DNA of 63,713 nt from Promethearchaeota archaeon. GTDB taxonomy: Archaea; Asgardarchaeota; Lokiarchaeia; Sigyniarchaeales; SOKP01. Made by a program: the position numbers and the translations under genes. The DNA lies in assembly GCA_016839585.1 (NCBI GenBank), contig JAEOTZ010000073.1:1-63713 (forward strand), written 5' to 3'. Positions 8,747 through 44,423 of the stretch are shown one piece after another (position 1 is the stretch's first letter; the number at the start of each line of letters is the position of its first letter). The notes beneath the pieces are model-generated. The model did not search any database. It saw nothing but the letters and a program-made list of their open reading frames with translations, and was not told the DNA's origin.

Positions 8747-10117
8747 ATGAGAAAAGGAATGGATCATAAATTTATTCACCCAATTGAGACACGCTATCGA
8801 ACTGAGATAGCAGCTCTTTTTACAGAAGAAAAAAAATTAGAAAATTGGTTAAAAGTAGAAGCAGCATTAGCTAGGGTACATGCAAAGCTTGGTAATATTC
8901 CAACAGAAGCTGCTGAAGAGATAAGTAAAAAGGCAAATATTAAATATGTTAAAGTTGAAAGAGTTAAGGAAATAGATAGCCAAATACACCACGATTTGAT
9001 GGCAATGGTTAAAAGTTTAGCTGAACAATGTGAAGGTGATGCTGGAAAATATATTCATTTAGGAGTTACCAGTTATGATATTGAAGATAGTGCTATGGGA
9101 TTACAGTTAAAAGCGGCATTAAATTATATTAGAGATTCTCTGAAAAATTTATTAAAAGAATTATTAAGAATTATTGCTGAAAAAAAGAACCTAGTCTGTA
9201 TTGGACGAACACACGGTCAACATGCAGTGCCTACTACATATGGAATGCGGTTTGGAATATGGGCATATGAAATTGATAGACATTTGGATCGTATTTTAGA
9301 AGTTTTAGAACGTATCTCGTATGGTAAAATGTCTGGTGCTGTGGGTACAATGGCTAGTTTTGGAAATAAAGGTATAGAAATACAAAATAATGTTATGAAA
9401 GAATTAGGTTTAAATCCTGTTCTTTTAGCCAACCAAATTATGCAAAGGGATAGGCATGCTGAAGTTTTGTTTTTAACTGCTTTAATTGGACAAACCCTTG
9501 CTAAGATAGCCCGAGAAAACCGGATTTTACAACGAAACGAAATAGCAGAAATGTTTGAACCCTTTAAAAAAGAACAAGTTGGAAGTTCTACAATGCCTCA
9601 CAAGAGAAATCCTCACAAGTCAGAGAGAATCTGTAGTTTAGCAAGAATTATTAAATCTAACGTTATTCCTGCATTGGATAATATAGTGTTAGAAGACGAG
9701 AGAGATATAACAAATTCTGCTTCTGAAAGGGTGATTTTTGCGGAAAATTTCATATTATTGGATTATATGATTAGAGAATTAAACCGTAATCTTGAAGGAA
9801 TTGAATTCAACGAAAGTAAAATAGAAGAAAATCTTAATCTTACTAAAGGTGCTTGTTTATCTGAAAGGGTTATGGTTGAGTTAGTTAAAAGAGGAATAGG
9901 AAGACAAGAAGGACATGAAATTTTAAGAGAAGCTGCAATAGTTTCAAGGAATGAAAATAAATTTATAAAGGATATTTTATATGAAAATCAAATAATCAGT
10001 AAACAGTTTTCTAAGGAAGAATTAGATCATTTATTGGATCCACATAAATATATTGGGACAGCGGTCGAGCAAACCGAAAATCTTTTGAAAATTCTAAAGA
10101 AAAAATATAATTGGTAA
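8747..10117 (+). CDS. purB: Adenylosuccinate lyase
   Basis: GRTHGQHA, GSSTMPHKRNP. Confidence 0.97.
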   Translation: MRKGMDHKFIHPIETRYRTEIAALFTEEKKLENWLKVEAALARVHAKLGNIPTEAAEEISKKANIKYVKVERVKEIDSQIHHDLMAMVKSLAEQCEGDAGKYIHLGVTSYDIEDSAMGLQLKAALNYIRDSLKNLLKELLRIIAEKKNLVCIGRTHGQHAVPTTYGMRFGIWAYEIDRHLDRILEVLERISYGKMSGAVGTMASFGNKGIEIQNNVMKELGLNPVLLANQIMQRDRHAEVLFLTALIGQTLAKIARENRILQRNEIAEMFEPFKKEQVGSSTMPHKRNPHKSERICSLARIIKSNVIPALDNIVLEDERDITNSASERVIFAENFILLDYMIRELNRNLEGIEFNESKIEENLNLTKGACLSERVMVELVKRGIGRQEGHEILREAAIVSRNENKFIKDILYENQIISKQFSKEELDHLLDPHKYIGTAVEQTENLLKILKKKYNW

Positions 10118-41974: not shown

Positions 41975-42235
41975 TTATTCCAATGCCTTCACTTTTGAAT
42001 AATCAATAGTAATTGTACGCTTCGTCTCTATAATTTTTCCGATTATCAACACTTTTTTGTCTAGAAATTTATGCAATTCAGGATCTTTTTGCCATAAGTG
42101 AGTTTTTTTCCTAACAAGAATCTCCGACCATCTGTTTTTGTAATCGTCCAACGGTTTAATGAAATATTCAGGTCCTTCCGATCGTGTCCCCTTTCCTTTT
42201 ATAATTGCGAAAAGAATTCCTCTAATTTCATTCAT
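41975..42235 (-). CDS. Small hypothetical beta-rich protein (OB-like)
   Basis: 86-aa ORF, GTRSEGPEY motif. Confidence 0.6.
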   Translation of the reverse strand: MNEIRGILFAIIKGKGTRSEGPEYFIKPLDDYKNRWSEILVRKKTHLWQKDPELHKFLDKKVLIIGKIIETKRTITIDYSKVKALE

Positions 42236-42324
42236 AGATTAAATCCATATTAATGATTATTGTAATAGATTAAAAATCGTAGGTTTTGATGTTTATTAAA
42301 TATATTAAAAATAAATGAAAATAA

Positions 42325-43540
42325 TTACTTTTGTTTTGATAAATACCTAATTTTTACAAGCAAATCTCTTAATTCCATTTTATCATTGTCAGGAGTAATG
42401 TATTTCTTTTTAACGCCCTCTGCGAAGGGAATTTTTTCTATTTTGTTTCCTTGGAGAGAGACCATATAACCAAATTCATTATTTAAAACTAATTTCATTG
42501 CTGCTAAGCCAAATCGCAATCCAAGTATGCGATCGAAACAGCTCGGAGTTCCAGCACGCATGGTATGACCAAGTACTACGCTTCTACATTCAAAATCTAC
42601 TCCATTTTTCTGAAACTCTTGCTTTAAATCATCTCTTAGGTTTAACTCGCTAACAATTATTTGCGACATATTCAATTTTACTAGTAACGGATTACCATAT
42701 GTATCTTTAGGTAACTTATCAATCGTTTCCTTAGATATTGTTTTAAAATCTCTATTTAAAGATTCTATATTTGGATATGCTCCTTCTGATGTAGCAATTA
42801 TATGATACTTATAGCCAGCATTAACTCTCTTTTTCAAAACGTCAATTATGTCTCTCTCTAAATTAAATGGTGTTTCTGGAATTAAGATTATATCTGCTCC
42901 AGCAGATATTCCACTGTACATTGTTAAAAAACCAGCGTCTCTACCCATAACTTCTACAATAAATACTCTCTGATGTGAACGAGCAGTAGTAGTGAGATTA
43001 TCAAGTGTATTAGAGGCTAATTGCACGGCACTCCAAAATCCGAATGTATAATGAGTTCCCTGCAAGTCATTATCAATGGTTTTTGGCACTCCTACTACTT
43101 TTGCATTGGCATATTTATGCATAGTATCAGCTACACCTAGAGTATCGTCTTCAGTTTAAAATAGAAACTATTTTAAAACTCCACCGATAGCTATTAAGGC
43201 ATCTATTCCTAATTCTTCAAATTTTTTAGCCAATTCTTTAGCTTTTTCTTCTTTTGAATTCACTCCTTTGAATGGGTTAGTCCTACTTGTATATAGAATT
43301 GTTCCACCAACAGTATGTAAATCATCATGTTCAGCAATATCAAGTGGAATTGTTTTATTTTCCAAAAATCCTTTCCAGCCTTTTAGAATTCCGATACATT
43401 CTATGCCTGCATCATATGCTTTTAACATTATCCCATAAATTACACTATTTAACCCAGGGCAGTATACGACAGTCAAGGAAAGTCTTGAACATGACTCCGC
43501 CGCCCGTTAAAATTCCTACTTTTTTTATTTGATTACCCAT
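42325..43540 (-). CDS. pfkA: 6-phosphofructokinase (PfkA family, probably PPi-dependent); three exons 43540-43495, 43463-43179, 43148-42325 giving 384 aa
   Basis: Spliced product reads VGILTGGG|DCPGLN...IGG|DDTLG...PKTIDND...EVMGR...LGHTMR; total 1155 nt. Confidence 0.9.
43149..43178 (-). other. Putative BHB intron 2 of pfk (30 nt, contains an in-frame TAG)
   Basis: Outer helix TATCG/CGATA, central GTGG/CTGA (one mismatch), bulges AG|T and AG|A, perfect 10-bp inner hairpin TTTAAAATAG/CTATTTTAAA. Confidence 0.8.
43464..43494 (-). other. Putative BHB intron 1 of pfk (31 nt, frameshifting)
   Basis: Central helix GCGG/TCGT, bulges AG|T and AT|A, inner CA/TG plus TCAAG/CTTGA, outer GGGCG/C(T)GCCC. 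Confidence 0.8.
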
Positions 43541-43620
43541 TTCATTTCACACGTTTAGTTGTGTTAGATTATAACAAATTAATTTATAATAAAAAATTAT
43601 GATAATTATATATTTTATAT

Positions 43621-44190
43621 TTATTCTAATTCTATTTTCTCAATTTTCTTAAAAGTATATTTTGATTTATTTTTTGGAATTATATAACTCCCTCCTTGGG
43701 TATCAGTTATTTTTAAAGTAAACTTAAATTTCCCATCTATAGCTTTTTTTAAATTATCTAAGATTTCATCTATTTCGCTTTTTTCTGGATCATTATCATC
43801 AAGATTATTTCTATATATTAAGACAGCACTCTCAAATCTATATAATATACCTTCTACATTTGTATAATAGAAATCTGCTCTTGGACCAGGTTCTACGACT
43901 AAGTCTAATTCAGGAATTTCTAATTTTCCTGCTGGCGAACGATAGATTTTAGATTTGAGATCATCTTCATTCATTACTCGTAAAGTCATAATTCCTGGTT
44001 TTGTATTAGTAGTTAAAGGAATAACATCACTTTTATGAAAATCACATATATTACATACAAATTTTAATATGAGCATTTTGTCCCCATCGGGAACATCATA
44101 AATACTCTTAATTATATCGATTTTGCCTTCTTGACATGAAGGACATTTAAAGGAATATACAATCTTATTACTTCTTTTCTCTTTGGCCAT
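43621..44190 (-). CDS. ZPR1 zinc finger protein
   Basis: CPSC, CNIC, IPEL..EPGP, TNVEGIL, D..GGSYI. Confidence 0.9.
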   Translation of the reverse strand: MAKEKRSNKIVYSFKCPSCQEGKIDIIKSIYDVPDGDKMLILKFVCNICDFHKSDVIPLTTNTKPGIMTLRVMNEDDLKSKIYRSPAGKLEIPELDLVVEPGPRADFYYTNVEGILYRFESAVLIYRNNLDDNDPEKSEIDEILDNLKKAIDGKFKFTLKITDTQGGSYIIPKNKSKYTFKKIEKIELE

Positions 44191-44423
44191 ATAAATATTT
44201 CCTAGTTTAAATTTTTTTAAAGTTGGATCAGTTTTATACATTAATTCATAAGATCGATTTACGATGGCACCGTTTTTAAAATAAATTAATAATTATAACA
44301 ATTATTATTTTAAATTCTATATTATTGTTTCATATTGTAGTTATATAAGTTAAATCAATAGAACTTTTATTCATTGTGTCTTTATTGGATATATTACACT
44401 CAATTGAAATAAATTAAAGTCAG

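What the first reader, a model, noticed from the sequence alone, without database searches (positions are those of the whole stretch)
42325..43540. Phosphofructokinase gene split by two tRNA-type (BHB) introns: candidate mRNA splicing in an Asgard archaeon
Seen: the ORF track breaks pfk into pieces, but deleting 43464-43494 (31 nt, frameshifting) and 43149-43178 (30 nt, in-frame TAG) gives a clean 1155-nt CDS. This restores the motifs TGGG|DCPGLN and IGG|DDTLG, with no other stop or frameshift. Both inserts fold with their flanks into a bulge-helix-bulge: 3-nt bulges, a 4-nt central helix and an inner hairpin. Known: archaeal EndA cuts BHBs after the second bulge nucleotide and RtcB ligates. 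Applying that rule gives GGA G|AC both times, and for intron 1 it is the only register that restores Asp. Protein-coding BHB introns are rare; cbf5 of Crenarchaeota is the classic case. Inference: the gene is functional and spliced by the tRNA machinery, possibly gating a central carbon enzyme post-transcriptionally, analogous to HAC1/XBP1 splicing.
Basis: partly seen in the sequence, partly recalled or inferred. Interest (0 to 1): 0.95.

Follow-up and report, generated by a model that had tools for sequence, protein, structure and literature searches.

The report
Two tRNA-type mini-introns in Asgard pfk
The phosphofructokinase gene of this Asgard archaeon is interrupted by two tiny inserts shaped like tRNA introns, and comparison with about 100 related genomes shows they are conserved, selected RNA structures in a working gene, so its mRNA most likely has to be spliced, something published for archaeal coding sequences essentially only for cbf5.

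Summary
Removing 43464-43494 (31 nt) and 43149-43178 (30 nt) from the minus strand gives one 1155-nt PFK reading frame with GGDCPGLN and IGGDDTLG restored.

Both inserts fit the bulge-helix-bulge (BHB) geometry cut by the archaeal tRNA-splicing endonuclease EndA, at exactly the frame-restoring positions. Intron 1 is canonical. Intron 2 is relaxed, with a 3-bp central helix plus an invariant G.A.

- **Distribution:** among 100 pfk genes of this Asgard family, intron 1 is in 22 (four genera) and intron 2 in 18 (three genera). They are always at the same site and otherwise precisely absent.
- **Selection:** carrier genes have dN/dS of 0.05-0.09, the same as intronless ones. The introns evolve far more slowly than synonymous sites.
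- **Structure:** the helices show compensatory changes. Exon synonymous sites that build the BHB are fixed only in carriers.
- **Machinery:** the genome encodes two EndA paralogues and RtcB.
- **Missing:** no RNA data could be obtained, so splicing is inferred, not shown.

This scan has already reported the same kind of intron on other DNA of this genome and in other Asgard genomes. I confirmed one of these (RNase HII). I class it as a new member of a known kind.

The parts
43495..43540 (-). pfk exon 1 (ATG plus 15 codons plus 1 nt; MGNQIKKVGILTGGG, then the first base of Asp)
   Evidence: conserved in orthologues
43464..43494 (-). intron 1, 31 nt, shifts the frame; the only register that restores GAC (Asp)
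   Evidence: present in 22 of 100 orthologues and precisely absent in the rest
43457..43505 (-). BHB 1: outer helix 43501-43505 with 43462 and 43457-43460 (U43461 bulged); 5' bulge 43494-43496 (AG|U); central helix 43497-43500 with 43466-43469; inner hairpin 43470-43493; 3' bulge 43463-43465 (AU|A)
   Evidence: 92.6% of cells paired against 32-52% for slid controls; central helix paired in all 20 distinct sequences; C-G to U-A double change in L061
43179..43463 (-). pfk exon 2 (285 nt; Pfam PFK profile 11-100)
43149..43178 (-). intron 2, 30 nt, in frame but with UAG and UAA stops
   Evidence: present in 18 of 100 orthologues and precisely absent in the rest
43143..43189 (-). BHB 2 (relaxed): outer helix 43185-43189 with 43143-43147; 5' bulge 43178-43180 (AG|U); central helix 43181-43183 with 43152-43154 plus G43184.A43151 mismatch; inner 10-bp hairpin 43155-43177; 3' bulge 43148-43150 (AG|A)
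   Evidence: 88.8% paired against 33-44% for slid controls; outer and inner helices recovered by RNAalifold
42325..43148 (-). pfk exon 3 (824 nt including the stop; Pfam PFK profile 103-276; PKTIDND and MGR motifs)

Best explanation
pfk is a functional phosphofructokinase gene of the PfkA family, transcribed as a pre-mRNA with two mini-introns of 31 and 30 nt. Each intron folds with its exon flanks into a bulge-helix-bulge motif. I infer that the archaeal tRNA-splicing endonuclease EndA (here two paralogues, consistent with the broad-specificity alpha2-beta2 type) cuts after the second nucleotide of each 3-nt bulge, and that RtcB joins the exons. This recreates GGA-G|AC (Gly-Asp) inside the two catalytic Gly-Gly-Asp motifs. 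Shown here: the frame-restoring boundaries coincide with the BHB cut sites; the introns are precisely present or absent among orthologues; the gene is under purifying selection; the structure is conserved with covariation; the enzymes are encoded. Inferred: actual cleavage and ligation in the cell. The introns look like old, selectively maintained but dispensable elements. Their patchy distribution is shaped at least partly by recombination between intron-bearing and intronless alleles. They do not look like a dedicated regulatory switch.
For: (1) Deleting the two inserts gives a clean 384-codon PFK with both GGD motifs restored, and the Pfam and NCBIfam matches are colinear across the junctions. 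(2) The BHB geometry sits exactly at the frame-restoring register, and intron 2 is the top BHB candidate in the gene. (3) Among 100 pfk genes of the family, intron 1 is in 22 (genera g1, g22, g21, g16) and intron 2 in 18 (g1, g22, g21). The site is always the same, lengths are 31-32 and 30 nt, and absence elsewhere is precise. (4) dN/dS is 0.05-0.09 among carriers and 0.03-0.09 among intronless genes, with dS about 1. All spliced versions are open. (5) Intron identity between carriers is 73% and 81%, against 38-41% at fourfold sites of the same pairs. (6) Covariation: at site 1 five pairs change on both sides, including exon GGC to GGT matched by intron G to A in L061, and the central helix is 100% paired. 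At site 2 the pairs vary G.U/G-C and U.G/U-A/C-G, and there is an A-U to G-C switch. (7) Exon synonymous sites that form the BHB are in the state G[CT]GGAG|AC in 21/22 and 18/18 carriers, against 1/76 and 0/80 non-carriers. In phylogenetically independent contrasts the state follows the intron in about 14 of 15 (p about 1e-4) and 9 of 9 (p = 0.004). (8) The genome encodes two EndA-domain genes and one RtcB. One EndA best matches PDB chains 3p1z_B, 3ajv_B and 2zyz_B, which from my own memory of those entries are crenarchaeal heterotetrameric enzymes. PMC5829648 reports (alpha-beta)2 EndA with the L1 loop in Asgard archaea. (9) A second gene of the same genome, RNase HII, has a 30-nt BHB-like insert with a stop inside DEAG|RGP.
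Against: There is no transcript evidence. No RNA run was listed and no spliced contig was found. Free-energy folding does not pick the BHB. Single-sequence z-scores are -0.1 to -1.9. RNAalifold prefers an exon-exon helix GGCGG:CUGCC at site 1 and leaves the site-2 central helix open. The BHB energy averages -7.2 and -5.6 kcal/mol, against MFE values of -16.3 and -10.5. Intron 2 has only 3 central pairs (2 in four species) and an invariant G.A, so it needs an enzyme that accepts relaxed motifs. The outer helix of intron 1 needs a bulged U. The link between exon states and intron presence could partly reflect co-transfer of flanks with the intron by recombination, and I defined the exon state after seeing the carriers.
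Confidence: 0.85

Rival explanations
1. The inserts are removed from the mRNA, but by some RNA-processing route other than EndA/RtcB (an unknown endonuclease or ligase), and the BHB-like fold is only part of the signal.
For: Intron 2 departs from the canonical BHB (3 bp plus G.A). The BHB is not the minimum-energy fold. No enzymology is available.
Against: The cut sites predicted by the EndA rule are exactly the frame-restoring ones at both introns, and in relatives they fix the register. Covariation follows the BHB helices. EndA and RtcB are encoded. Relaxed BHBs are known substrates of (alpha-beta)2 EndA (PMC5829648).
Confidence: 0.06
2. Splicing is real and is also used as a regulatory gate on glycolytic flux. 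Splicing would be conditional, by analogy with HAC1/XBP1.
For: Unspliced mRNA can only give truncated, inactive products. Both introns sit in catalytic motifs.
Against: Each intron is absent from about 80% of orthologues, including sister sequences. At least 19 and 14 changes of state are needed on the gene tree. No sensor or condition is known. Similar mini-introns occur in unrelated genes, which points to a general tolerated feature and not a pfk-specific switch.
Confidence: 0.1
3. The gene is a pseudogene, or the inserts are assembly artefacts.
For: The reading frame is broken twice. Public annotations call truncated proteins of 265 or 357 aa.
Against: The same inserts occur in 22 and 18 independently assembled genomes. 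dN/dS is 0.05-0.09 at dS about 1. There are no other lesions in any carrier. The introns themselves are conserved. Only one pfk was found in the genome.
Confidence: 0.02
4. The ribosome bypasses the inserts (translational hopping as in T4 gene 60, or programmed frameshifting) without RNA splicing.
For: Both inserts follow a GGA codon and contain hairpins.
Against: There is no matching landing codon at either 3' end (...CGUAU|AC and ...GAAG|AC). Bypass cannot recreate the Asp codon that is split as G|AC. Covariation involves exon-intron pairs that fit a BHB, not a take-off/landing pair.
Confidence: 0.02

Closest known systems
BHB intron in the cbf5 pre-mRNA of Crenarchaeota (Watanabe 2002; Yoshinari 2006; Yokobori 2009, PMC2738675)
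   Same: A short intron in an archaeal protein-coding gene, flanked by a bulge-helix-bulge, removed by the tRNA-splicing endonuclease of a lineage with a heteromeric EndA. It is gained and lost among related species.
   Different: Different phylum (Asgard) and a metabolic gene instead of an RNA-modification gene. There are two introns in one gene, both inside Gly-Gly-Asp catalytic motifs. They are very small (30-31 nt). The presence/absence pattern within genera is very patchy and recombination tracts are visible. Splicing is not yet shown by RNA data here.
Archaeal tRNA introns at canonical and non-canonical positions, abundant in Asgard archaea (Marck and Grosjean 2003; PMC11291895; bioRxiv 10.64898/2026.10.13.758758)
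   Same: The same hBHBh' or relaxed motif, half built from exon sequence. The same predicted enzymes. Repeated gain and loss.
   Different: The host RNA is an mRNA, so the exon half of the motif must also satisfy a reading frame. Here that is met by Gly codons (GGY GGA G) in a 29% G+C genome.
HAC1/XBP1 unconventional mRNA splicing (IRE1 plus tRNA ligase/RtcB) in eukaryotes
   Same: Spliceosome-independent, protein-catalysed cleavage of an mRNA with ligation by a tRNA ligase. Removing a short intron changes the reading frame.
   Different: The endonuclease (IRE1) and the RNA signal (paired stem-loops) are different. That system is stress-regulated. Nothing here indicates regulation.

Membership tests
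Archaeal BHB (EndA-type) intron | [quoted passage not shown] | tested here: met
   Intron 1: 4/4 central pairs, bulges AG|U and AU|A, inner hairpin; the outer helix is one pair, or five with one bulged U. Intron 2 meets the relaxed form only: 3 bp plus an invariant G.A, a 5-bp outer helix and a 10-bp inner helix.
Archaeal BHB (EndA-type) intron | Cutting after the second nucleotide of each bulge and joining the exons yields the functional RNA | tested here: met
   Both predicted cuts give GGA G|AC and one open 384-codon PFK. Intronless orthologues have exactly this junction.
Archaeal BHB (EndA-type) intron | Helices supported by covariation across homologues | tested here: met
   Site 1: five pairs change on both sides, and the covariation score beats 500/500 shuffles and all slid controls. 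Site 2 is weaker: one pair changes on both sides and there are several one-sided changes.
Archaeal BHB (EndA-type) intron | The host encodes the splicing endonuclease and the RtcB ligase | tested here: met
   Two PF01974 genes (C2, C39) and one PF01139 gene (C7).
Archaeal BHB (EndA-type) intron | Excision and exon ligation observed in RNA, in vivo or in vitro | not testable with these tools
   No RNA run was listed. The junction scan and contig look-ups found no spliced product.
Phosphofructokinase, PfkA family (PF00365; NCBIfam PFK_mixed) | Colinear full-length match to the family profile with the motifs GGDxPGxN, GGD(D/G)(T/S), PKTIDND and MGR | tested here: met
   Exons 2 and 3 cover profile positions 11-100 and 103-276 and 11-103 and 105-323. 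The motifs are read in the spliced translation. ATP versus PPi specificity was not determined.
Translational bypass element (T4 gene 60 type) | Matching take-off and landing codons flanking the gap, with coding resuming after the landing codon | tested here: not met
   The take-off codon would be GGA. No GGA or near-cognate landing codon lies at either 3' end, and the Asp codon exists only after joining G|AC.
IRE1-type (HAC1/XBP1) regulated splicing | IRE1 kinase-RNase and twin 7-nt stem-loop cleavage sites; stress-dependent splicing | not tested
   No search for IRE1 was made. The RNA signal found here is a BHB, and the introns are dispensable among relatives.

The most novel reading that the evidence does not exclude
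The pfk introns are one visible part of a pervasive layer of tRNA-endonuclease-dependent mRNA splicing in Asgard archaea. Dozens of housekeeping and metabolic genes per genome would carry 25-40-nt BHB introns. [quoted passage not shown]
Probability: 0.5. Interest if true: 0.85.

Novelty: new member of a known kind. Interest (0 to 1): 0.72.

Why it matters
Protein-catalysed splicing of archaeal coding sequences is published essentially for one gene, cbf5. The papers I could search report abundant tRNA introns in Asgard archaea but no census of mRNA introns.

Here a central glycolytic enzyme needs two such splicing events. The 40 intron copies found across about 100 genomes make an unusually good natural experiment. 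They show selection on both the intron and the exon half of the splicing motif.

- **Annotation:** gene callers truncate these genes to 265 or 357 aa, or flag them as partial. Metabolic reconstructions of Asgard MAGs can therefore wrongly lose PFK and other enzymes.
- **Biology:** an mRNA that must be spliced before it can be translated is awkward for coupled transcription-translation. That makes Asgard archaea an interesting case for ideas on how intron-containing genes became tolerable before eukaryotes.

Tried and rejected
- **RNA evidence:** no RNA holder was listed for the locus, so read laying could not be used.
- **Metagenome junction scan:** I scanned the metagenome collection for the spliced junction 1 with carrier-type codons. 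All 18 hits were PFK genes only 39-51% identical, from unrelated organisms that share the ILTGGGDCPGLN coding motif. This is uninformative.
- **Spliced contigs through the protein collection:** no near-identical full-length protein exists for this species. Four close 382-384-aa proteins on short Logan or JGI contigs are ordinary intronless DNA alleles with neighbouring genes.
- **Genome-wide BHB plus ORF-restoration screen of G000:** background dominated it (1290 real against 1698 decoy candidates) and the decoy rule was biased by A-rich runs. It cannot give a census. pfk intron 2 was its top hairpin-type hit. Intron 1 is invisible to it because exon 1 has only 15 codons.
- **Copies of either intron elsewhere in the genome:** none beyond chance, so they are not a repeated mobile-element family at the sequence level.
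- **Rfam:** no family matches in 42200-43700.
- **My first BHB topology was wrong.** I paired the start of the intron with its end and got no central helix. I corrected this before scoring.
- **Other in-frame inserts in distant orthologues:** the 30- and 33-column inserts (alignment columns 544-574 and 405-438) are coding indels, not introns.

Full report
**Observation.**
The gene lies on the minus strand. The ORF list shows three fragments: a 31-aa ORF from ATG 43540, a 102-aa piece and a 265-aa piece. Removing 43464-43494 (31 nt) and 43149-43178 (30 nt) gives 1155 nt, 384 codons and one terminal stop. It reads MGNQIKKVGILTGGGDCPGLN... and ...AIGGDDTLG....

Exon 2 matches Pfam PFK profile positions 11-100 and exon 3 matches 103-276. 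Only the junction residues are missing. NCBIfam PFK_mixed gives 11-103 and 105-323. The register of intron 1 is unique. In this genome three neighbouring registers of intron 2 give the same product.

**BHB geometry.**
My first hand check used the wrong topology. In the correct one, the central 4-bp helix forms between the last exon nucleotides before the 5' bulge and the last intron nucleotides before the 3' bulge.

- Intron 1 reads outer helix / AU|A / GCGG:UCGU / AG|U / hairpin.
- Intron 2 reads AUCG(U):(A)CGAU / AG|A / (G.A)UGG:CUG / AG|U / 10-bp hairpin.

A scan of every cut pair in the gene ranks intron 2, in the frame-restoring register, first. Intron 1 has 4/4 central pairs but short uninterrupted flanking helices.

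Free-energy methods do not select the BHB by themselves:
- Single-sequence z-scores are weak.
- RNAalifold prefers an exon-exon helix GGCGG:CUGCC at site 1. At site 2 it recovers the outer and inner helices but leaves the central helix open.
- The BHB is stable (mean -7.2 and -5.6 kcal/mol) but is not the MFE.

This is a caveat. It is also usual for motifs with two 3-nt bulges that are read by a protein.

**Relatives.**
A search of 41 and then 135 genomes of the same family found pfk in most of them. I fetched 100 pfk regions from 13 genera of the family and one outgroup and aligned them.

| Feature | Intron 1 | Intron 2 |
|---|---|---|
| Carriers among 100 sequences | 22 | 18 |
| By genus | g1 7, g22 10, g21 4, g16 1 | g1 6, g22 11, g21 1 |
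| Length | 31-32 nt | 30 nt |
| Minimum changes of state on the gene tree | 19 | 14 |
| Mean pairwise intron identity | 73% | 81% |
| Fourfold-site identity, same pairs | 38% | 41% |

In every other sequence the insert is absent to the nucleotide (GGNG|AY). In L002, L007 and L046 intron 2 ends ...AAC|AC, and other carriers show further variants at that position. Only the BHB-predicted register then restores Asp. Titles of the closest public records are Promethearchaeota (Asgard) MAGs.

**The gene is alive.**
All spliced versions are open. Pairwise dN/dS among carriers is 0.05-0.09 at dS of about 1. Intronless genes give 0.03-0.09. The introns are much more conserved than fourfold-degenerate sites in the same pairs.

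**The structure is under selection.**
On the carrier alignments:
- The BHB of site 1 is paired in 92.6% of cells, against 32-52% when partners are slid by 1-3 columns. Its central helix is paired in all 20 distinct sequences. Five pairs change on both sides. One of these is an exon-intron pair: exon GGC to GGT in L061 is matched by intron G to A.
- Three carriers (L061, L071, L099) have strongly diverged intron sequences that keep the architecture.
- Site 2 is paired in 88.8% of cells, against 33-44% for slid controls. Its central pairs vary as G.U/G-C and U.G/U-A/C-G. The fourth position is G.A in every sequence, and four species also have U.U. It is therefore a relaxed BHB.

The exon half of the motif gives an independent signal. 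Carriers have GG(C/T) GGA G|AC in 21/22 and 18/18 cases. The same synonymous positions vary freely in the 76 and 80 intronless genes, where the state occurs 1 and 0 times. In phylogenetically independent contrasts the exon state follows the intron in about 14 of 15 (p about 1e-4) and 9 of 9 (p = 0.004).

Two caveats apply. I defined the exon state after seeing the carriers. Linkage to the intron through recombination could also contribute to the association.

**Dynamics.**
On the pfk gene tree the introns are very patchy, and strongly supported sister pairs differ in intron state. For the nearly identical pair L063/L065, 19 of the 30 differences cluster within about 150 nt around site 1. At least this change of state came with a replaced segment, which means recombination, and not a clean excision.

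Neither intron has other copies in the genome.

**Machinery and context.**
The genome encodes two EndA-domain genes and one RtcB. One EndA best matches PDB chains 3p1z_B, 3ajv_B and 2zyz_B. From my own memory of those entries, they are crenarchaeal heterotetrameric endonucleases. The other EndA is more divergent. This fits the (alpha-beta)2 EndA with the L1 loop reported for Asgard archaea, the type that accepts relaxed BHBs (PMC5829648).

A second gene of this genome, RNase HII, carries a 30-nt insert with an in-frame TAG inside DEAG|RGP. It has the same architecture.

**Literature.**
The library holds the following:
- the cbf5 work (PMC2738675);
- reports of very abundant tRNA introns in Asgard archaea (PMC11291895; bioRxiv 10.64898/2026.10.13.758758).

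I found no paper describing BHB introns in Asgard protein-coding genes. That means not found in the library searched, not that none exists.

Earlier notes of this scan describe the same kind of intron on other DNA of this genome and in other Asgard genomes, some with RNA-derived contigs lacking the intron. These are leads. I checked only the RNase HII case myself.

**What is missing.**
There is no transcript evidence for this locus. No RNA run was listed. The junction scan and contig look-ups found nothing relevant. Splicing is therefore inferred.

**Verdict.**
The best explanation is two tRNA-type (BHB) mini-introns in a functional pfk, removed by EndA and RtcB (confidence 0.85). The proposed HAC1-like gating is unsupported. 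This is a new member of a known but very rare kind, well documented comparatively, and probably part of a genome-wide phenomenon in Asgard archaea.

Noticed in passing
G000 contig C52, minus strand, insert about 9655-9684 (locus L104): The RNase HII gene of the same genome has a 30-nt insert with an in-frame TAG inside the DEAG|RGP motif. Removing it restores AGRGP. The BHB-like score is central 3/4, outer 1, inner 9, with 5' bulge AG|A.
   Followed up: partly
L063 versus L065 (pfk of G111 and G109), alignment columns 200-400: Two nearly identical pfk genes differ in the presence of intron 1. 19 of their 30 differences cluster within about 150 nt around the intron site. This indicates a recombination tract and not a clean excision or insertion.
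   Followed up: partly
public protein clusters P0002, P0009, P0034, P0090 and others: Gene callers appear to truncate intron-bearing pfk. I read lengths of 357 aa as calls that start after intron 1, and 265-274 aa as exon 3 only. One example is a 265-aa 'hypothetical protein LCGC14_0771110' from a marine sediment metagenome. I inferred this from the lengths and did not match lengths to intron state row by row. Metabolic reconstructions may miss PFK in such MAGs.
   Followed up: no
window 43541-43560 (minus strand, upstream of ATG 43540) and orthologous loci: A GTGTGAAAT box 5-8 nt upstream of the pfk start codon is conserved in most same-genus orthologues. It is possibly a ribosome-binding or other 5' signal.
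   Followed up: no
window 43621-44241 (minus strand): The gene upstream of pfk encodes a ZPR1-type zinc-finger/jelly-roll protein (Pfam jr-ZPR1, E = 1.5e-17). The same neighbour is seen next to pfk on a JGI contig (L206).
   Followed up: no
L031 and L032 (G074 contigs C137 and C89): One genome of the same genus holds two pfk copies. One of them groups with genus g22 in the gene tree. This could be bin contamination or transfer.
   Followed up: no
orthologue alignment columns 544-574 (between window 43230 and 43260 in pfk exon 2): A 30-nt Lys/Glu-rich coding segment is present in the more distant genera and absent in g1 and g22. It is an ordinary 10-aa indel, not an intron.
   Followed up: yes
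window 43457-43505 (minus strand): The exon sequences GGCGG and CUGCC on either side of intron 1 can pair with each other, which competes with the BHB central helix. RNAalifold prefers this helix. It would bring the two splice sites together.
   Followed up: partly
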